This document shows, one piece after another, positions 3,399-12,474 of a DNA stretch of 55,228 nucleotides. Position 1 is the first letter of the stretch; the number at the start of each line of letters is the position of its first letter. Source of the DNA: Candidatus Methylomirabilota bacterium (GTDB taxonomy: Bacteria; Methylomirabilota; Methylomirabilia; Rokubacteriales; CSP1-6); contig DATFWA010000296.1 of assembly GCA_035259825.1 (NCBI GenBank), forward strand, positions 1-55,228. The letters are read 5' to 3'. A program made the translations under genes and the position numbers. The notes beneath the pieces are model-generated. The model searched no databases. It was not told the origin of the DNA and saw nothing but the letters and a program-made list of their open reading frames with translations.

Positions 3399-4790
3399 CT
3401 AGCCGAGAAGGTTCTCGGCCGCCTCCATCAGAGTCTCGGACAAGGTCGGGTGCGCGTGGATGGTGGCCGCCACGTCCTCGACGAGGGCGGCCGTCTCGAC
3501 CGCCAGCGTGGCCTCCGCGATCAGCTCGCCCGCGCCGGGACCGACGATGCCCATGCCGATGACGCGGCCGGACCGGGCATCCGCGACCAGCTTGGTAAGC
3601 CCGTCCGAGCGGCCGATCGTCGCGGCGCGGCCGGACGCGGCCCACTGAAATTTCGAGACCTTGGGCTCGATGCCCTGCGCCTTGGCCTGAGCTTCGCTGA
3701 GCCCACACCAGGCGATCTCGGGATCTGTGAAGACGACGGCCGGGATCGCCACGTTGTCGAACGCGGAGGGTTGACCGGCCAGGGCTTCGGCGGCCACCTT
3801 GCCCTGGCGCATCGCTCGATGGGCGAGCATCGGCTCTCCGGTGACGTCGCCCACCGCGTAGATGTGGGGGTCGTCAGTGCGGCAGCGATCGTCCACCTGG
3901 ATGAACCCCGTCCGATCGGCCAGGCGCACGCGGGTGGTCTCGAGGCCCAGCCCGGCGCTCTGCGCGCGCCGCCCAACCGCGATCAGCACGCGGTCGAAGC
4001 GCTGGGCGCCCTGGCCCTCCAGGTCCGCCTCGATCCCAGCGCCCGCCTCGCGCAGGGCGGTGACCTTCGTCTTCAGGTGGAGCGCGGTGAAGAGCTTCTC
4101 CACCCGTCGCTGGAGCGGCTGGACGAGGTCGCGGTCAACACCGGGCAGGAGGCCGTCGGTCATCTCGACGAGGGTCACCTGGCTGCCCAGGGTGGCGTAG
4201 ACCGTGCCCATCTCGAGGCCGATGTAGCCGCCGCCGATGACTAGGAGGCGCTCCGGGATGTCGGGCAGGTCGAGGGCGGCCGTCGAGTCCATCACGCGCT
4301 CGCTTGCGAGCCTCACGCCGGGGAGCCCGCTCGGCTGCGAGCCGGTGGCCACGATGGCGTGCTTGAAGCGGACCTTCCGCAAGGCGTCGCCACCCTCGAT
4401 GCGAAGTGTGGTCGAGTCCTCGAAGACGCCGCGCCCGCCCACCACCTCCACCTTCTTCGCGCGGGCCACCGAGGCGAGGCCGCGAGCGAGCTTGCCGACC
4501 ACACGCTCCTGTTTCCACTTCCGGAGTGGGTCGAGGGAGACGCGCGGCTCGCCGAAGTCGACGCCGAACTCCTTCGCGCGCTCCGCCTCGTTCAGCACCG
4601 CGGCCACGTGCAGGAGCGCCTTGCTGGGGATGCAGCCTTCGAAGAGGCAGGCGCCGCCGAGGCGGCTCGCCGCATCGATCACCACCGTCTCGAGGCCCAG
4701 GTCGGCGCAGCGGAACGCAGCCGAGTAGCCGCCCGGTCCGCCGCCCAGCACGGCCACCTCGACCTCGTCCACCAGATCACCCATGACCAT
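3399..4790 (-). CDS. lpdA: dihydrolipoyl dehydrogenase (E3)
   Basis: GGGPGGY FAD motif, redox disulfide CLFEGCIPSK, and C-terminal HAHPTLSE. Confidence 0.95.
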   Translation of the reverse strand: MVMGDLVDEVEVAVLGGGPGGYSAAFRCADLGLETVVIDAASRLGGACLFEGCIPSKALLHVAAVLNEAERAKEFGVDFGEPRVSLDPLRKWKQERVVGKLARGLASVARAKKVEVVGGRGVFEDSTTLRIEGGDALRKVRFKHAIVATGSQPSGLPGVRLASERVMDSTAALDLPDIPERLLVIGGGYIGLEMGTVYATLGSQVTLVEMTDGLLPGVDRDLVQPLQRRVEKLFTALHLKTKVTALREAGAGIEADLEGQGAQRFDRVLIAVGRRAQSAGLGLETTRVRLADRTGFIQVDDRCRTDDPHIYAVGDVTGEPMLAHRAMRQGKVAAEALAGQPSAFDNVAIPAVVFTDPEIAWCGLSEAQAKAQGIEPKVSKFQWAASGRAATIGRSDGLTKLVADARSGRVIGMGIVGPGAGELIAEATLAVETAALVEDVAATIHAHPTLSETLMEAAENLLG

Positions 4791-4793
4791 CGG

Positions 4794-6107
4794 CTACCAC
4801 TCCCAGAGCAGGCGCTCGGGCGCCTCGAGCCGCTGCACGATGTCGGTGGCGAGGCGCGCGCCGTCCGCCCCGTCGGCGATGCGGTGATCGAAGGTCAGCG
4901 TCAGCGGCAGGATCAACCGGGGTACGATCTGGGCTCCGCGCACCACCGGCTCCTGCCGGGCCCGGGCTACGCCGAGGATGGCGACTTCCGGATAGTTGAT
5001 GATCGGGATCGCGGCGGTGCCGCCGAGCGCGCCGATGTTGGTGATGGTGAAGGTGCCCCCGCGCAGATCCTCCAGCGTGGCCTTGCCCTCGCGAACCCGC
5101 TGGGCGAGCGCGCCGAGCTCGCGGGCCACCTCCAGCAGTGGCTTTCGATCGACGTCGCGCAGCACCGGCACGATGAGGCCGCGCTCGGTCGCCACCGCCA
5201 CGCCGAGGTGGTAATAGCGCTTGAGGATCATCTCGCCGGCGGCCGGGTCGAGGCTCGCGTTGAACTGGGGATGGTTCCGCAACGCCAGCGCAGCCGCCTT
5301 GAGCAGGAAACCGGTCAGCGTCAGCGTGACACCCTGGGCGCGCGCGGCCTCGAGGTTGCGGGTGATGATCGCGTCCAGGTCCGTGATGTCCGCGCGGTCG
5401 AAGTGCGTGACGTGCGGGATCAGCGTGGCGGACAACGTCATGCGCTCCGCGATGGTTCGCCGGAGATGCGACAGGGGCGCGCGCTCGACGGGTCCCCACT
5501 GTTCGAAGCGCGGCAGGGGCGGCGGCTCGAGGCCGACACTGGCCAGCGGTTTTGCCGGTCCACCGGGCGTAGCCGGTTTCGCACGATCCGCCCGCGCCGC
5601 GACGGCAGGCTGGCCGGGGCGACCGCCTGCAGCGGCGCGCACATCATCGTCCAGGATCCGACCGCCGGGACCGGTGCCGCGCACGCCCTGGAGCGCGACG
5701 CCAAGCTCGCGGGCGAGTCGGCGCGTGGCCGGGGTGGCGGCCACGGGACCCGCGGCGGAAACCGGGGCCGCGGGCAGTTGAGCCGGTGCCGGGCTCCGGG
5801 ATGGCGCGGCCGCGGGCTTCGGAGCCGCTGCGTGGCCGGAGGGCGTCGCGGCGGGTCGGGCCGGGGCGCCGTCATCGGCGAACGTCACCAGTACGGTGCC
5901 GACCTTCACGGTCTGGCCCGGCGACACGTGGATCTTCTCGACCCGGCCGCCCATCGGGGATGGGATCTCCACCTGGGCCTTGTCAGTCTCGACTTCGAGC
6001 AGCGGCGCGTCCTCGGCGATGACATCGCCTTCGCGCACGAGGACGGCGACGATCTCCGCCTCGGTCAAGCCCTCCCCGAGGTCAGGCAGTGCAAAGGGCC
6101 TGGACAT
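4794..6107 (-). CDS. dihydrolipoamide acyltransferase (E2) of a 2-oxoacid dehydrogenase complex
   Basis: Lipoyl domain LLEVETDKAQVEIPSP, Ala/Pro linker, subunit-binding PATRRLARELGV, and catalytic DHRIADG. Confidence 0.93.
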   Translation of the reverse strand: MSRPFALPDLGEGLTEAEIVAVLVREGDVIAEDAPLLEVETDKAQVEIPSPMGGRVEKIHVSPGQTVKVGTVLVTFADDGAPARPAATPSGHAAAPKPAAAPSRSPAPAQLPAAPVSAAGPVAATPATRRLARELGVALQGVRGTGPGGRILDDDVRAAAGGRPGQPAVAARADRAKPATPGGPAKPLASVGLEPPPLPRFEQWGPVERAPLSHLRRTIAERMTLSATLIPHVTHFDRADITDLDAIITRNLEAARAQGVTLTLTGFLLKAAALALRNHPQFNASLDPAAGEMILKRYYHLGVAVATERGLIVPVLRDVDRKPLLEVARELGALAQRVREGKATLEDLRGGTFTITNIGALGGTAAIPIINYPEVAILGVARARQEPVVRGAQIVPRLILPLTLTFDHRIADGADGARLATDIVQRLEAPERLLWEW

Positions 6108-6114
6108 AAGAAGA

Positions 6115-7095
6115 TTAGAACTTCAGGGTCTCGCGGCAGGCGGCCAGCAGCCGGGGAACGTCGGGCAGGTTGGCGCGCTCGCGGGCAAAGCCCACGAACG
6201 GCACGTCGTGGGCGGTGACCCGGAGGATCGGCGCCTCGAGCGACAGGAACGCGCCCTCCATGATCGACGTGGCGATCTCCGCGCCCGGGCCAAAGCTCTT
6301 GGGGGCCTCGTGCACGATGACCGCCCGTCCGGTCTTGCGGACCGACGCGGCCAGGGTCTCGCGGTCGGGCGGAGAGATCGTGAGCAGATCGACGATCTCG
6401 GTCTCGACGCCGTCTTCCTCGTGAAGCCGGTCGGCGGCCTCGCGGGCCACGCGGACCATCGCTCCGTAGGCCACGACGGTCAGATCGTGACCCGGACGGT
6501 CGATCCGCGCCCGACCGATCTCCATCGTCTCGATCTCGTCGGGCACGTCCTCCTTGGCCGCGTGATAGAGGGCCTTGGCCTCGAAGAAGATGACCGGATC
6601 GGGATCGCGGATCGCCGAGGCCAGGAGCGCCCGGGCGTTGCGGGGCCCAGACGGGATCACCATCTTGAGGCCGGGGATGTGTGCGTAGAACTGCTCCTCG
6701 CTCTCCGAGTGGTGCTCCAGCGCCCGGACACCGCCGCCATACGGCATCCGCACAACCATCTGGCAGCCGAAGCGCCCCTGCGTGCGCATCCGGTAGCGGG
6801 CGGCGTGGTTCTCGATCTGATGGAAGCATTGGAAGGCGAACCCCGAGAACTGGATCTCGCAGATCGGCTTGAGCCCGTAGAGAGCCATGCCCACCGAGGC
6901 TCCGATGATGCCGGCCTCGGCCAGGGGACTGTCCACGACCCGCGTGCTGCCGAACTTCCGGTGCAGATCCTCGGTGACCCGGAACACGCCGCCGTCGACC
7001 CCCACGTCCTCGCCGATGATGAGCACGTCGGGATCGCGCTCCATCTCCTGGAGCAGCGCCAGGTTCAGCGCTTTGACCATGTTCAGCTTCGCCAT
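6115..7095 (-). CDS. 2-oxoacid dehydrogenase E1 component beta subunit
   Basis: MAKLNMVKALNLALLQEMERDPDVLIIGEDVG. The start was chosen at Met-213 of the long track ORF. 13-nt overlap with the E1 alpha stop. Confidence 0.93.
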   Translation of the reverse strand: MAKLNMVKALNLALLQEMERDPDVLIIGEDVGVDGGVFRVTEDLHRKFGSTRVVDSPLAEAGIIGASVGMALYGLKPICEIQFSGFAFQCFHQIENHAARYRMRTQGRFGCQMVVRMPYGGGVRALEHHSESEEQFYAHIPGLKMVIPSGPRNARALLASAIRDPDPVIFFEAKALYHAAKEDVPDEIETMEIGRARIDRPGHDLTVVAYGAMVRVAREAADRLHEEDGVETEIVDLLTISPPDRETLAASVRKTGRAVIVHEAPKSFGPGAEIATSIMEGAFLSLEAPILRVTAHDVPFVGFARERANLPDVPRLLAACRETLKF

Positions 7096-8346: not shown

Positions 8347-9258
8347 ATGCGCGTCCGGGTTCGTGTGCCGGCCACTTCGGCCAATCTCGGGCCGGGATTC
8401 GACGCGCTCGGCCTCGCGCTGGCGCTTCACAACGAGGTCATCGCCGAGGCCGCCGCCGACGTGACGGTCTCGATCGATGGCGAGGGCCGCGGCCGGCTCG
8501 ACGATGGCGCGAAGAATCTCGTGGCGCGCGCGGTGGCCCTCGCGCACGAGGTCGCCGGCCGACCCTTTCACGGCGCCCGCCTCCGCTGCATCAACCGGAT
8601 CCCGCTCAGCCGCGGCCTCGGCTCGAGCGCCGCCGCCTGGGTGGGGGGACTGCTCGCCGCCAATGCGCTGATGGGCGAGCCACTCGATCGAGAGGCCCTG
8701 TTGACCGTCGCCGCCCGGGCCGAGGGCCATCCCGACAACGTGGCCGCCGCGCTGCTCGGCGGGCTCACGGTGTCCTGCGCCGATGGCGTGCGGGTCACCG
8801 CGGTGAGTCTTCGGGCCCCGAGCGAGATCGAGTGGGTGGTGCTCCTCCCCGAGACCGAGAGCTCCACCCGCGAAGCCCGGGCGGTCCTGCCCGACACGCT
8901 CGCGCGCGCGGACGCGGTCTTCAACGTGCAGCGGGTGAGCCTGCTGCTCGCAGCCCTCGCGGGCGGCCGCGCCGACCTGCTCGACCGGGCCATGCAGGAC
9001 CGGCTGCACCAGCCCTATCGCCAGCGCCTGTTCCCATGGATGGAGGCGATCGCGACCGCGGGTCGCCGGGCCGGCGCGCTCGGCTGCGTCCTGAGCGGAG
9101 CGGGGCCCTCGATGCTGGCCGCGGTGCGGCAGCGCGACGGCGGGGCGGTGGCCGAAGCGATGGAGCGCGCCCTCCGGGCCGCCGGAATCGGCGGCCGGGC
9201 GATCGCGTTACCCGTCGATCCGGTCGGCGCGACGTGGGAACAGGTGTCCGAGACTTGA
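8347..9258 (+). CDS. thrB: homoserine kinase
   Basis: [25 protein letters not shown] and GHMP kinase motif [11 protein letters not shown]. Confidence 0.9.
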
Positions 9259-9301
9259 CTCTCGCTCGAGGCAGGCAGTACGATCGATCCAAGGTGTATC
9301 C

Positions 9302-9853
9302 GTGATCAAGAGCGACCGCTGGATCAGGCGGATGGCCGTCGAGAAGGGGATGATCAAGCCCTTCGAGGATCGGCAGGTGCGCAAGGGGTCGATCTCGTAC
9401 GGCCTGTCGTCCTACGGCTACGACATCCGGATCGCGGACGAGTTCAAGATCTTCACCAACATCAACACCACCATCGTGGATCCAAAAAGTTTCGATCCGC
9501 GATCCTTCGTGGACTACCAGGGTGACGTGGCGCTGATCCCGCCCAATTCCTTCGCCCTGGGTCGCTCCGTGGAGTACTTCAAGATCCCGCGCAACGTCCT
9601 CACCATCTGCGTGGGCAAGTCCACCTACGCGCGGTGCGGCATCATCACCAACGTGACGCCCTTCGAGCCGGAGTGGGAGGGCTACGTCACGCTGGAGATC
9701 AGCAACACCACGCCGCTGCCCGCGAAGATCTACGCCAACGAGGGCATCGCGCAGGTCCTGTTCTTCGAATCGGACGAGGCCTGCGAGACGTCATATGCAG
9801 ACAGGCAGGGGAAGTACCAGGGCCAGCAGGGGATCGTCCTCCCCACGGTCTAG
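9302..9853 (+). CDS. dcd: dCTP deaminase
   Basis: [12 protein letters not shown]...[13 protein letters not shown]...[11 protein letters not shown]...[11 protein letters not shown] start. Confidence 0.92.
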
Positions 9854-9898
9854 GTCCTGACGCCGGCCTCGCTGACCGGGGCCAGGAGGTGACGTGCC

Positions 9899-10105
9899 AT
9901 GGCTGAGCAGAAGAAGAAGGAGACGAGGCCAACCAAGCCTTCCGAAGGCGGGGGCGAGGAAGGCGGGGCGGGCAGTGCCGAGCTGAGCAAGAAGGGCAAG
10001 AAGATCAAGGAAGAGCTCGACAACCTGCTCGACGAGATCGACGACATTCTCGAGGAGAACGCCGAGGAGTTCGTCAAGAGCTACGTGCAGCGCGGCGGGC
10101 AGTAG
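9899..10105 (+). CDS. pup: prokaryotic ubiquitin-like protein Pup
   Basis: 68 aa with a disordered Gly/Glu-rich N-terminus. The C-terminal half is ELDNLLDEIDDILEENAEEFVKSYVQRGGQ, ending in the characteristic GGQ. AGGAGG Shine-Dalgarno lies 9 nt upstream. Confidence 0.9.
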   Translation: MAEQKKKETRPTKPSEGGGEEGGAGSAELSKKGKKIKEELDNLLDEIDDILEENAEEFVKSYVQRGGQ

Positions 10106-10140
10106 ACCCGCCGGCTGACGTCAGGGAGAGCTGGGGAACG

Positions 10141-10359
10141 ATGCCGATCTACGAGTACGGATGCCTCGCCTGTGGGGCCGAGTTCGAGAAGTTCGTCCAG
10201 GCGCCGACCGTGGTGGCCTGCCCGTCGTGTCAGAGCGATCGGGTTAGTCGTCGTCTGTCCGTCGTCGGGGTGAAGGTCGGTGCTCGCGCGTCCGGCTCGA
10301 CTCCCGCGCCCATGGGCGGTGGGGGCGGGTGCTGCGGAGGCGGATGCGGCTGTCACTGA
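10141..10359 (+). CDS. FmdB-family zinc-ribbon protein (CxxC_CxxC_SSSS) with Gly/Cys-rich tail
   Basis: MPIYEYGCLACGAEFE...CPSCQS and tail GGGGGCCGGGCGCH. Confidence 0.85.
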   Translation: MPIYEYGCLACGAEFEKFVQAPTVVACPSCQSDRVSRRLSVVGVKVGARASGSTPAPMGGGGGCCGGGCGCH

Positions 10360-10384
10360 TCGCTTGAGCGGCACGGCATGATCG

Positions 10385-10409
10385 GGGCCCTTCGGGGCCC
10401 TTTTTGTTT
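10385..10409 (+). terminator. intrinsic terminator ending the thrB-dcd-pup-fmdB unit
   Basis: GGGCCC-TTCG-GGGCCC (6-bp stem, UUCG tetraloop) followed by TTTTTGTTT. Confidence 0.7.
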
Positions 10410-10430
10410 CCCCCGCGCGAGCCCGCCGGC

Positions 10431-10459
10431 TGGACAGCGCACTGCCGGGCTTCTATACT
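10431..10459 (+). promoter_or_regulatory. sigma70-like promoter, TGGACA-N17-TATACT, placing the transcription start at or next to the lysR GTG (leaderless)
   Basis: -35 at 10431-10436 and -10 at 10454-10459. Only 7 nt separate the -10 from GTG 10467, and there is no Shine-Dalgarno. Confidence 0.4.
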
Positions 10460-10466
10460 CAGCGGC

Positions 10467-11360
10467 GTGGATCTGCGCCAGCTCGAGATCTTCGTCAAGG
10501 TCGCAGAGCTGGGCTCGTTTTCCCGCGCCGCCGAAGCGCTGTTCCTGACCCAGCCGACCGTCTCGGAGCACATCCGCACCCTCGAGGATGAGCTGGGGAT
10601 CCGCCTGCTCGACCGCCTCGGCCGCGGAGCCGCGGTGACCCGGGGTGGAGCCTTGCTGCTCTCCTACGCGCAACGCATGCTCGCGCTGTCGCGCGAGGCG
10701 CGACAGGCGATGGAGAGCTTCCAGGGCCGGATGAGCGGCGATCTGCTGGTCGGCGCGAGCACGATTCCAGGCGAGTACATCCTCCCGGCGCTCATCGGCC
10801 GCTTCAAGGAGAAGTTCCCCGACATCGCAATCACCTTGCTGATCGGCGGCAGTCAGGCGGTGACCGAGTGGGTCGCCGAGGGGCGCGCGGAGCTCGGGGT
10901 GGTGGGCGCGCGCTCGGCGCATCGGAGCATCGAGTACCGCGAGCTCTTCCCCGACGACATCGTGGTGATCGTCAGCGCGGCGCATCCGTGGCACGGACGC
11001 AAGCAAGTGACGGTCGAGGAGCTGCGGGCCGAACCCCTCCTGCTCCGCGAGCGCGGCTCCGGCACGCGCGCGGCCCTAGAGAGCGCCCTCGACACGGCCG
11101 GCGTGGATCTCGCGGGCCTCCGGGTGGTGGGCGAGATGGGGTCGACGCAGGCGATCAAGCAGGCGGTCAAGGCCTCGGTCGGGGTGTCGCTGCTGTCGCG
11201 GCGGGCCGTCGAGGAGGAGTGCCGGGTCGGGACCCTGTGGTGCCTACGGGTGAAGAACCTGAAGATCAACCGCGCTTTCTACCTGGTCACCAATCGGGAG
11301 CGCAGCCGCTCGCCGCTGGCCGAGGCATTCCGCGCCTTCGTCGAGGCCGAGGCGGTCTGA
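10467..11360 (+). CDS. LysR-family transcriptional regulator (possibly the selenium-metabolism-associated subgroup)
   Basis: VDLRQLEIFVKVAELGSFSRAAEALFLTQPTVSEHIRTLEDELG HTH. Sits immediately upstream of selD with a 37-nt gap. Confidence 0.9.
   Translation: MDLRQLEIFVKVAELGSFSRAAEALFLTQPTVSEHIRTLEDELGIRLLDRLGRGAAVTRGGALLLSYAQRMLALSREARQAMESFQGRMSGDLLVGASTIPGEYILPALIGRFKEKFPDIAITLLIGGSQAVTEWVAEGRAELGVVGARSAHRSIEYRELFPDDIVVIVSAAHPWHGRKQVTVEELRAEPLLLRERGSGTRAALESALDTAGVDLAGLRVVGEMGSTQAIKQAVKASVGVSLLSRRAVEEECRVGTLWCLRVKNLKINRAFYLVTNRERSRSPLAEAFRAFVEAEAV

Positions 11361-11397: not shown

Positions 11398-12474
<1,077 letters not shown>

What the first reader, a model, noticed from the sequence alone, without database searches (positions are those of the whole stretch)
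9899..10359. Pup gene decoupled from the pupylation/proteasome locus, embedded in a thrB-dcd-pup-fmdB unit
**Seen in sequence**
- A 68-aa ORF with a strong Shine-Dalgarno ends in ...LLDEIDDILEENAEEFVKSYVQRGGQ, the hallmark Pup C-terminus.
- GGQ implies a need for Dop deamidation.
- Its neighbours are homoserine kinase and dCTP deaminase upstream, and an FmdB zinc ribbon with a GGGGGCCGGGCGCH tail 35 nt downstream.
- A UUCG-tetraloop terminator follows.
- No dop, pafA, mpa/arc or prcAB gene is present anywhere in the 55-kb window.

**Established knowledge**
In Actinobacteria and Nitrospirae, pup normally sits between dop and prcB.

**Inference**
Three readings are possible:
- the pupylation genes are dispersed in this lineage;
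- pup has a different partner, and the tightly linked zinc-ribbon protein is an obvious candidate;
- this is a second, orphan copy.
Basis: partly seen in the sequence, partly recalled or inferred. Interest (0 to 1): 0.6.

Follow-up and report, generated by a model that had tools for sequence, protein, structure and literature searches.

The report
Relocated Pup gene with zinc-ribbon partner
This is the genuine, only gene for the bacterial protein-degradation tag Pup in a soil Rokubacteria genome; it looks orphaned because this lineage keeps its ligase, deamidase, ATPase and proteasome genes in a separate operon, and its phylum-wide pairing with a small zinc-ribbon gene is an untested lead rather than a new system.

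Summary
The 68-aa ORF (9899-10105) is a bona fide Pup: Pfam 74 bits, TIGR03687 64 bits, E=2e-14 to crystallised M. tuberculosis Pup. It is the only pup in the genome and is under strong purifying selection (pN/pS about 0.07).

The lineage is Methylomirabilota, order Rokubacteriales. In same-genus genomes the partners form a compact mpa-dop-prcB-prcA-pafA operon that lacks pup (1 nt between dop and prcB) and lies on another contig, or 1.2 Mb away. The window's own MAG is 64% complete and holds only an mpa fragment that runs off a contig end.

- pup-fmdB is a phylum-wide pair: 40/41 relatives and 68 of 70 named loci.
- The gap is 10 nt or less in 50 of 69 loci, and the Pup RGG(E/Q) codons look like the fmdB ribosome-binding site.
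- In Methylomirabilales the order is pup-fmdB-mpa-dop-prcB-prcA-pafA, so Rokubacteriales differ by one breakpoint.
- A dCTP deaminase gene precedes pup in 61/62 Rokubacteriales loci, and one clade has swapped in a non-orthologous long type in the same slot.
- The Cys-rich-tail FmdB subtype also occurs in many phyla with no pupylation gene within about 8 kb, so any role in pupylation is unproven.

Verdict: a new gene-order variant of a known system.

The parts
8347..9258 (+). thrB (homoserine kinase, GHMP kinase family), conserved upstream flank of the unit
   Evidence: PF00288 and PF08544. thrB lies upstream of dcd-pup in most Rokubacteriales loci that reach far enough.
9255..9284 (+). Promoter-like site (TTGACT-N18-TACGAT) just before dcd; candidate start of a dcd-pup-fmdB transcript
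   Evidence: Consensus scan, 9 of 12 matches; 2 sites found against 0.1 expected in shuffles. This is a consensus match only, with no expression data.
9302..9853 (+). dcd, short (183-aa) dCTP deaminase; the genome's only dcd, directly upstream of pup
   Evidence: PF22769, 123 bits. A dcd gene precedes pup in 61 of 62 Rokubacteriales loci: short type in 27, long DCD_N+DCD_C type in 34. There is one dcd type per genome, beside pup.
9884..9889 (+). Shine-Dalgarno AGGAGG, 9 nt before the pup ATG
   Evidence: Read directly from the sequence.
9899..10105 (+). pup, prokaryotic ubiquitin-like protein, 68 aa, C-terminus GGQ
   Evidence: PF05639 74 bits; TIGR03687 64.3 bits. E=2.4e-14 to M. tuberculosis Pup 7px9_G, aligned over residues 11-68. 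Only hit in the genome. pN/pS 0.069 over the last 32 codons in 62 Rokubacteria sequences.
10141..10359 (+). fmdB/Ruc-family zinc-ribbon protein, 72 aa: CxxC-N15-CxxC ribbon, probably disordered linker, conserved tail GGGGGCCGGGCGCH
   Evidence: PF09723 51 bits; TIGR02605 49.9 bits. AlphaFold2 gives pLDDT about 90 for residues 1-40 and below 50 for residues 41-72. It lies directly downstream of pup in 40 of 41 relatives and in 68 of 70 named Methylomirabilota loci. It is the only paralogue with the Cys-rich tail.
10384..10410 (+). Intrinsic-terminator-like hairpin (7-bp GC stem, TTCG loop) plus T-run; likely end of the dcd-pup-fmdB unit
10404..11360 (+). LysR-type regulator (context, own promoter-like site at 10431-10459), followed by selD at 11482-12474; conserved downstream flank in most Rokubacteriales
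   Evidence: PF00126 and PF03466; promoter-like site; synteny.

Best explanation
The ORF is the single, functional pup gene of a Rokubacteriales (phylum Methylomirabilota) bacterium. It serves a normal Pup-proteasome system whose other genes (mpa-dop-prcB-prcA-pafA) lie in a separate operon elsewhere on the chromosome.

Proposed mechanism. Pup is made with a C-terminal Gln. Dop deamidates it to Glu. PafA ligates that Glu to lysines of target proteins. Mpa binds the Pup helix, unfolds the target and feeds it to the PrcAB 20S core, and Dop can also remove Pup.

Proposed history. The phylum's ancestral order is pup-fmdB-mpa-dop-prcB-prcA-pafA, as still seen in Methylomirabilales. One break between fmdB and mpa left pup-fmdB downstream of the housekeeping gene dcd in Rokubacteriales. 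There the three genes probably form one transcript, running from a promoter-like site before dcd to the terminator after fmdB.

The zinc-ribbon partner. In most relatives fmdB is probably translationally coupled to pup, because the gap is 0-5 nt and the codons for Pup's RGG(E/Q) end form the ribosome-binding site. In the window's clade the gap is 35 nt and fmdB has its own ribosome-binding site. The FmdB protein belongs to the family of the redox-activated holdase Ruc. Its co-expression with Pup most likely links two arms of protein quality control.

Shown: identity, single-copy status, selection, the partner operon in relatives and the conserved linkage. Inferred: every biochemical step, co-transcription, translational coupling and any role for FmdB.
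For: Identity: Pfam and TIGRFAM scores above cut-off and alignment to crystallised M. tuberculosis Pup through the Mpa- and PafA-binding region.

Single copy: one hit in the own genome and one in 19 of 20 same-genus genomes.

Selection: pN/pS 0.069.

Partners exist: 14 of 14 high-quality relatives have two Pup-ligase-family genes. In G012 these and their neighbours score as equivalogs: Mpa 755 bits, Dop 626, PrcB 302, PrcA 323, PafA 630, all above cut-off. The dop stop codon ends at 9758 and prcB starts at 9760, leaving no room for pup. G034 has the same operon 1.2 Mb from pup on one contig.

Own genome: an mpa fragment at C143:14927-15542 runs to the last base of a 15,542-bp contig, with 77% nucleotide identity to G012 mpa. 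The MAG is 63.5% complete.

Ancestral order: G041 contig reads pup-fmdB-mpa-dop-prcB-prcA-pafA on one strand.

Pairing. Junction sequences. Promoter-like site and terminator.

Ruc link: the Ruc N-terminus, rebuilt from the cloning primers printed in the paper, scores 58 bits against TIGR02605 (PMC7448276). The model shows a zinc ribbon plus a low-confidence tail.
Against: In the window's own MAG, dop, pafA, prcA and prcB are not assembled, so the complete system is inferred from relatives. Co-transcription rests on consensus motifs only.

The functional tie to FmdB is weak for three reasons. The Cys-tail FmdB subtype is found in Acidobacteriota, Binataceae, Verrucomicrobiota and Actinomycetota with no pupylation gene within about 8 kb and no consistent neighbour. 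Nitrospirota and Actinomycetota pup loci have no zinc-ribbon neighbour. The more Ruc-like paralogue, with a Ser/Lys-rich tail, lies elsewhere in these genomes.
Confidence: 0.85

Rival explanations
1. FmdB is a dedicated extra component of the Pup system in Methylomirabilota. It would act as a zinc/thiol (redox or metal) switch or adaptor that binds Pup, Mpa, PafA or damaged proteins and so gates or directs pupylation. This extends the main explanation rather than replacing it.
For: - The pair is kept in 40 of 41 relatives and 68 of 70 named loci while both flanks change several times. Upstream is short dcd, long dcd or a MoaB/MogA-like gene; downstream is lysR, selD, mpa or others.
- fmdB lies inside the pupylation locus in Methylomirabilales.
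- The gap is 0-5 nt, with the ribosome-binding site inside the pup codons.
- Only this paralogue has the conserved CC-GGG-C-x-C-H tail, and the tail is under purifying selection (pN/pS 0.22).
- The Ruc family is a proteostasis family, and Ruc induction depends on the Pup-proteasome system in M. tuberculosis (PMC7448276).
Against: The same tail subtype is widespread in other phyla with no pupylation gene within about 8 kb and no fixed neighbour. Canonical Pup systems work without it. Adjacency within one phylum may reflect one ancestral operon that was simply never broken. No interaction data exist.
Confidence: 0.3
2. The pup-fmdB and dcd-pup adjacencies are historical accidents of operon structure with no functional meaning. 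Pup merely borrows a housekeeping promoter, and FmdB is an unrelated small protein.
For: FmdB with the Cys-rich tail occurs alone in many other lineages. Pup has also been relocated independently in a Nitrospirota subgroup, between H+-pyrophosphatase and a RecJ-like gene, without any zinc ribbon. The dcd swap maps to essentially one event on the thrB tree, so the constant dcd slot is weak evidence of selection.
Against: The tight translational-coupling geometry is conserved across two orders. The pair survives several independent changes of both flanks. The only Methylomirabilota pup loci seen without an fmdB downstream are divergent second pup copies or loci cut by a contig end or frameshift.
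Confidence: 0.5
3. This pup is an orphan or decaying second copy, or it acts without ligase and proteasome, for example as a free Mpa-independent peptide with FmdB as its only partner.
For: No dop, pafA or prcAB gene is found in the window's own assembly.
Against: The MAG is only 63.5% complete and carries an mpa fragment cut by a contig end. All 14 high-quality relatives have Dop and PafA. The canonical operon has no pup of its own. The C-terminal 32 codons are under strong purifying selection, and the ligation motif GG(Q/E) is invariant.
Confidence: 0.03

Closest known systems
Actinobacterial Pup-proteasome system (M. tuberculosis Pup Rv2111c with Dop, PafA, Mpa, PrcBA; locus mpa-dop-pup-prcB-prcA-pafA)
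   Same: The same six protein families are present. Pup's C-terminal 28 residues are almost identical to M. tuberculosis Pup and include the GGQ end that needs Dop. Dop, PafA, Mpa, PrcA and PrcB of relatives score as equivalogs. The canonical order was confirmed here in Actinomycetota loci and in 22 of 30 Nitrospirota loci.
   Different: pup is not between dop and prcB and is not adjacent to any PafA/Dop paralogue. [quoted passage not shown] Here it sits with dcd and fmdB hundreds of kilobases away. No pafBC genes are seen next to pafA; glgB follows instead.
Methylomirabilales (NC10) compact locus pup-fmdB-mpa-dop-prcB-prcA-pafA
   Same: The same pup-fmdB pair heads the system and the same five downstream genes follow. 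Pup is 60-62% identical to the window's Pup.
   Different: In Rokubacteriales the pair is cut off from mpa and placed after dcd. The FmdB tail is ...GG(S)CxxC(S)SGG in Methylomirabilales against ...GGGGCCGGGCGCH here. Upstream is a MoaB/MogA-like gene, not dcd.
Ruc (Rv0991c), redox-regulated zinc-ribbon holdase of M. tuberculosis (PMC7448276)
   Same: Same curated family, TIGR02605: Ruc N-terminus 58 bits, window protein 49.9 bits. Both have an MPxYxYxC..C start, four zinc-ligand Cys and a tail of low predicted order. The family is associated with proteostasis genes.
   Different: The spacer between the CxxC pairs is 15 residues rather than 17. The tail is short and Gly/Cys-rich with a conserved CC-GGG-C-x-C-H end, instead of a long Ser-rich hydrophilic tail. 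A more Ruc-like paralogue exists elsewhere in these genomes. The neighbour is pup, which is not among the neighbourhoods listed in the section of the Ruc paper read here. Holdase activity is untested.

Membership tests
Pup (PF05639 / TIGR03687) | Profile score above the curated cut-off | tested here: met
   PF05639 74 bits (cut-off 27); TIGR03687 64.3 bits (cut-off 41.45).
Pup (PF05639 / TIGR03687) | 50-90 aa protein ending in G-[EQ], preceded by the conserved helix that binds Mpa and PafA | tested here: met
   68 aa ending YVQRGGQ. It aligns with M. tuberculosis Pup (7px9_G, 3m9d_G, and the PafA-Pup fusion 4bjr_A) over residues 11-68, E=2.4e-14.
Pup (PF05639 / TIGR03687) | Co-occurrence with PafA ligase, and with Dop when the end is Gln | tested here: inconclusive
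   The own MAG (63.5% complete) has no PF03136 hit, only an mpa fragment at a contig end. All 14 high-quality relatives have both Dop and PafA.
Pup (PF05639 / TIGR03687) | Gene adjacent to a PafA/Dop paralogue (a neighbourhood rule stated in PMC2588565, not a property of the protein) | tested here: not met
   No PafA/Dop gene in the 55-kb window. In relatives it lies on another contig, or 1.2 Mb away.
Pup (PF05639 / TIGR03687) | Covalent attachment to substrate lysines and delivery to Mpa and the 20S proteasome | not testable with these tools
   Needs proteomics or reconstitution.
Pup-proteasome system locus (Mpa TIGR03689, Dop TIGR03688, PrcB TIGR03690, PrcA TIGR03691, PafA TIGR03686) | All five partner genes present and scoring as equivalogs | tested here: met
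   In same-genus G012 (L106): 755, 626, 302, 323 and 630 bits, all above cut-off. The same order is seen in G034 and G041. In the own genome only mpa residues 73-277 are assembled.
FmdB / Ruc zinc-ribbon family (TIGR02605, PF09723) | Profile score above cut-off and two CxxC pairs at the N-terminus | tested here: met
   TIGR02605 49.9 bits (cut-off 31.3); PF09723 51.2 bits (cut-off 34.4). C8, C11, C27 and C30 are invariant in 46 sequences.
FmdB / Ruc zinc-ribbon family (TIGR02605, PF09723) | Zinc-ribbon fold followed by a disordered C-terminal region | tested here: met
   The AlphaFold2 model has three strands with pLDDT about 90 for residues 1-40 and pLDDT below 50 for residues 41-72. Foldseek returns only generic zinc ribbons, none significant.
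FmdB / Ruc zinc-ribbon family (TIGR02605, PF09723) | Redox-activated holdase activity and DnaK interaction (Ruc function) | not testable with these tools
   Known only for M. tuberculosis Ruc (PMC7448276).
FmdB / Ruc zinc-ribbon family (TIGR02605, PF09723) | Neighbourhood with chaperone, protease or HrcA genes, as reported for part of the family | tested here: not met
   The neighbours here are dcd, pup and lysR. pup and mpa are not among the neighbourhoods listed in the section of the paper read here.

The most novel reading that the evidence does not exclude
The Cys-tailed FmdB zinc-ribbon protein is a previously unrecognised seventh component of the Pup-proteasome system in Methylomirabilota. 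It would be a small zinc/thiol or metal switch, made in fixed proportion to Pup by translational coupling, that gates or targets pupylation under oxidative or metal stress.
Probability: 0.25. Interest if true: 0.7.

Novelty: new variant of a known kind. Interest (0 to 1): 0.42.

Why it matters
Pupylation is the only bacterial ubiquitin-like degradation tag, and it has been studied almost entirely in Actinobacteria. There pup is part of one locus, and its position next to a PafA/Dop gene was described as invariable (PMC2588565).

This finding shows a whole phylum in which pup heads the locus with a zinc-ribbon gene. In one large soil order, pup has been detached altogether and tied to a nucleotide-metabolism gene.

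Three consequences follow:
- Automatic annotation and 'orphan pup' calls in metagenomes need care.
- Pup supply can be regulated separately from the ligase, deamidase and proteasome.
- One small, easily expressed protein (FmdB with a CC-GGG-C-x-C-H tail) becomes a concrete candidate accessory factor that can be tested in vitro.

Tried and rejected
- The search for homologous proteins with FmdB returned only Rokubacteria-like hits among the best 120 and gave no information beyond the phylum. I replaced it with a DNA pattern scan for the tail.
- The look-up of encoding contigs for the Binataceae-like or 'delta' FmdB (L204) found nothing on record.
- An HMM built from pup-linked FmdB N-termini found only the pup-linked copy in the own MAG. 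The broader TIGR02605 search showed 1-9 paralogues per relative genome.
- The Foldseek PDB search with the FmdB model gave only generic, non-significant zinc-ribbon matches: MCM zinc subdomain, RNA polymerase subunit P/Rpb12 and ribosomal proteins.
- Literature searches for Rokubacteria plus proteasome, UBact plus Nitrospirae, and pupylation plus Methylomirabilis found nothing on this arrangement.
- I considered and rejected a RiPP (microcin B17-like) reading of the Gly/Cys tail. No modification enzymes are adjacent in any lineage, and the gene stands alone in other phyla.
- I considered a functional dcd-Pup link on the strength of the in-place swap of two dcd types. The thrB tree shows essentially one swap event, so I give it little weight.

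Full report
**1. Observation**

The window holds, on the + strand, five elements in order:
- thrB (8347-9258);
- dcd (9302-9853);
- a 68-aa ORF (9899-10105) preceded by AGGAGG 9 nt upstream;
- after a 35-nt gap, a 72-aa ORF (10141-10359);
- a GC hairpin with a TTCG loop and a T-run (10384-10410).

The 68-aa product ends ...LLDEIDDILEENAEEFVKSYVQRGGQ. It scores 74 bits on Pfam Pup (cut-off 27) and 64 bits on TIGR03687. It aligns with crystallised M. tuberculosis Pup over residues 11-68 at E=2.4e-14.

The 72-aa product is an FmdB-family zinc ribbon (PF09723, TIGR02605) ending GGGGGCCGGGCGCH. No Dop/PafA-family gene is in the window or elsewhere in the assembly, and tblastn with same-genus Mpa, Dop, PrcB, PrcA and PafA finds nothing on the window contig.

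**2. Organism and completeness**

The closest Pup loci in named genomes are almost all Candidatus Rokuibacteriota / Methylomirabilota MAGs. The window's genome is a MAG of 304 contigs, 63.5% complete, so absence of a gene from it means little.

The MAG does contain the start of mpa. C143:14927-15542 matches same-genus mpa at 77% nucleotide identity and 75% protein identity, and the match runs to the last base of the 15,542-bp contig. The rest of the locus is simply not assembled or not binned.

**3. Where the partners are**

- All 41 related genomes have Pup.
- All 14 high-quality ones have two Pup-ligase-family genes about 3 kb apart, never next to pup.
- In same-genus G012 the locus reads mpa (TIGR03689, 755 bits) - dop (TIGR03688, 626) - prcB (TIGR03690, 302) - prcA (TIGR03691, 323) - pafA (TIGR03686, 630) - glgB.
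- There the dop stop codon ends at 9758 and prcB starts at 9760, so no pup is hidden in the locus.
- G034 has the same operon 1.2 Mb from pup on one 4-Mb contig.
- In G012 pup lies 418 kb into a 964-kb contig and the operon is on a different contig.
- Nineteen of 20 same-genus genomes have exactly one pup.
- Across 62 Rokubacteria sequences the last 32 pup codons have pN/pS = 0.069.

The 'second orphan copy' reading is therefore rejected. This is the working pup of the lineage.

**4. How the arrangement arose**

In Methylomirabilales (G041 contig, L189) the order is pup-fmdB-mpa-dop-prcB-prcA-pafA, co-directional over 7.2 kb. L169, L171, L173 and L178 show the same head of the locus. Actinomycetota loci, and 22 of 30 Nitrospirota loci, have the textbook dop-pup-prcB-prcA order and no zinc ribbon.

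So the phylum Methylomirabilota has pup at the head of the locus with fmdB, and Rokubacteriales differ by one breakpoint between fmdB and mpa. Iyer et al. [quoted passage not shown] This order breaks that rule.

The order is not alone in this. Seven of 30 Nitrospirota pup loci have no pupylation gene within 1.5 kb. Two were examined, and in both pup lies between an H+-pyrophosphatase gene and a RecJ-like DHH gene.

**5. The pup-fmdB pair**

An FmdB-family hit lies immediately after pup in 40 of 41 relatives. The exception, G017, has pup near position 900 of its contig. The pair is also present in 68 of 70 named Methylomirabilota loci; the two misses are a contig end and a frameshift.

The flanks vary while the pair stays intact:
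- upstream: short dcd, long dcd, or a MoaB/MogA-like gene;
- downstream: lysR, selD, mpa or others.

In 50 of 69 loci the gap is 10 nt or less, usually 0-5. The purine-rich codons of Pup's RGG(E/Q) end (for example cgg gga ggc gag TAG) then sit where a Shine-Dalgarno for fmdB would be. This points to translational coupling, which is an inference. In the window's clade the gap is 32-36 nt and fmdB has its own GGGAGAG/GGGGAA element.

Pup's last residue switches between Gln and Glu among close relatives, so the need for Dop deamidation is clade-specific. The window's genus has Gln, and its complete genomes all have Dop.

**6. What the FmdB protein is**

The alignment of 46 sequences has invariant Y4, E5, C8, C11, C27, C30 and S40. 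AlphaFold2 gives a confident three-stranded ribbon for residues 1-40 (pLDDT about 90) and low confidence for residues 41-72. Foldseek finds only generic zinc ribbons.

The family includes M. tuberculosis Ruc (Rv0991c). I rebuilt the Ruc N-terminus from the primers printed in PMC7448276, and it scores 58 bits on TIGR02605. Ruc is a zinc-binding, oxidation-activated holdase with a disordered tail. Its family clusters with chaperone and protease genes, and its heat induction needs the Pup-proteasome system. pup and mpa are not among the neighbourhoods listed in the section of that paper read here.

Rokubacteria genomes carry 1-9 FmdB paralogues. In two same-genus genomes the others have Ser/Lys-rich (Ruc-like), acidic or very short tails. 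Only the pup-linked one ends in G(3-5)-CC-GGG(G)-C-x-C-[HR]. That tail is under purifying selection (pN/pS 0.22).

This tail subtype is not specific to Pup-bearing lineages. A pattern scan found it as the end of FmdB ORFs in Acidobacteriota (Acidoferrales), Binataceae, Verrucomicrobiota, Rubrobacteraceae, Gaiella and other Actinomycetota. None of those roughly 8-kb loci contains a pupylation gene, and the neighbours are inconsistent.

The linkage to pup is therefore a feature of the phylum, not of the protein family. I rate a direct role of FmdB in pupylation at about 0.25-0.3.

**7. The dcd link**

A dCTP deaminase gene lies directly upstream of pup in 61 of 62 Rokubacteriales loci.

Two non-orthologous types fill the slot:
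- the 183-aa short Dcd, as in the window, in 27 loci;
- a 385-aa two-domain type (PF06559 + PF22569) in 34 loci.

Genomes have one type or the other, and it is the one beside pup. G021 and G022 have only the long type. Most others have only the short type. G005 has both.

On a thrB tree the long type falls in one well-supported clade (25 long plus 1 short, support 98/99) and needs only 1-2 changes. This was essentially a single in-place displacement. It is therefore weak evidence for a functional dcd-Pup link; sharing a promoter is the simplest reading. A promoter-like site lies at 9255-9284, none was found between dcd and pup, and the terminator follows fmdB.

**8. Verdict**

This is a known system (pupylation with an Mpa-20S proteasome) in a new, lineage-wide gene arrangement, with one new and testable lead: the zinc-ribbon partner.

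Earlier notes of this scan on other Methylomirabilota genomes reach the same core reading, and I re-tested those points here.
- the in-place dcd swap;
- the wide distribution of the tail subtype with no pupylation gene nearby;
- the tails of the other paralogues;
- the fmdB ribosome-binding site inside the pup codons;
- the independent pup relocation in Nitrospirota.

Noticed in passing
L115:2736-3893 (and 33 other Rokubacteria loci); window 9302-9853: In-place non-orthologous displacement of dCTP deaminase. One Rokubacteriales clade replaced the short Dcd with a 385-aa two-domain DCD_N+DCD_C enzyme in exactly the same slot between thrB(-MFS) and pup. Genomes with the long type have no short type.
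   Followed up: yes
L198-L316 (for example L198:1328-1549, L260:4944-5162, L225:2848-3069, L238:2709-2966): An FmdB zinc-ribbon subfamily with a strictly conserved C-terminal ...GGGGCCGGGC-x-CH end is spread over Acidobacteriota, Binataceae, Verrucomicrobiota and Actinomycetota as a stand-alone small gene. The function of this Cys/His tail (metal site or redox sensor?) is unknown.
   Followed up: partly
L340:1495-1692 and L341:1498-1695 (Nitrospirota genomes G077, G153; also L336, L342, L343, L345, L346): A Nitrospirota subgroup also has pup away from dop/prcBA. In the two loci examined it lies between an H+-pyrophosphatase gene and a RecJ-like DHH/DHHA1 gene, with no zinc ribbon. This is an independent relocation of pup.
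   Followed up: partly
L179:1-6195: A divergent locus: an mpa 84% identical to Rokubacteria Mpa, followed by two very divergent Pup-ligase-family genes (220 and 271 bits; 28-34% identity to Dop and PafA) flanking a pup, then a glycosyltransferase. The record is labelled Saccharibacteria, probably mislabelled or misbinned. It may be a second, distinct Pup-type system.
   Followed up: partly
G029:C92:1944-3197 and 8910-9044; G032:C55, G034:C4, G036:C10, G038:C18; G035:C289:9039-9176: Genomes of one genus (g10) carry a third Pup-ligase-family paralogue at 500-525 bits. In G029 a Pup C-terminal-like segment lies on the same contig inside a long open frame. G035 (genus g12) has a similar Pup C-terminal-like segment in a long open frame. 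These may be a second pupylation-like module or a Pup-domain fusion.
   Followed up: no
L180:4001-4198 with 4208-5344 and 5411-6592; also L002, L006, L010, L172: Some Rokubacteriales genomes have a second, divergent pup (47-56% identical) with no dcd, fmdB or pupylation gene detected in the held flanks. In L180 it is followed by a DUF6062 protein and a Na+/H+ exchanger.
   Followed up: partly
loci L109-L183: Pup's last residue alternates between Gln and Glu among closely related Rokubacteria, so dependence on Dop deamidation has flipped repeatedly within the order.
   Followed up: partly
G037:C89:167-1113 and G037:C190:2-743: One relative has two dcd-pup-fmdB units on different contigs. This is either a duplication or a mixture of strains in the bin (5% contamination).
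   Followed up: no
window 10431-10459: A strong promoter-like site (TGGACA-N17-TATACT, 10 of 12 matches) lies just after the fmdB terminator and before lysR. This fits lysR being a separate, possibly leaderless, transcription unit.
   Followed up: no
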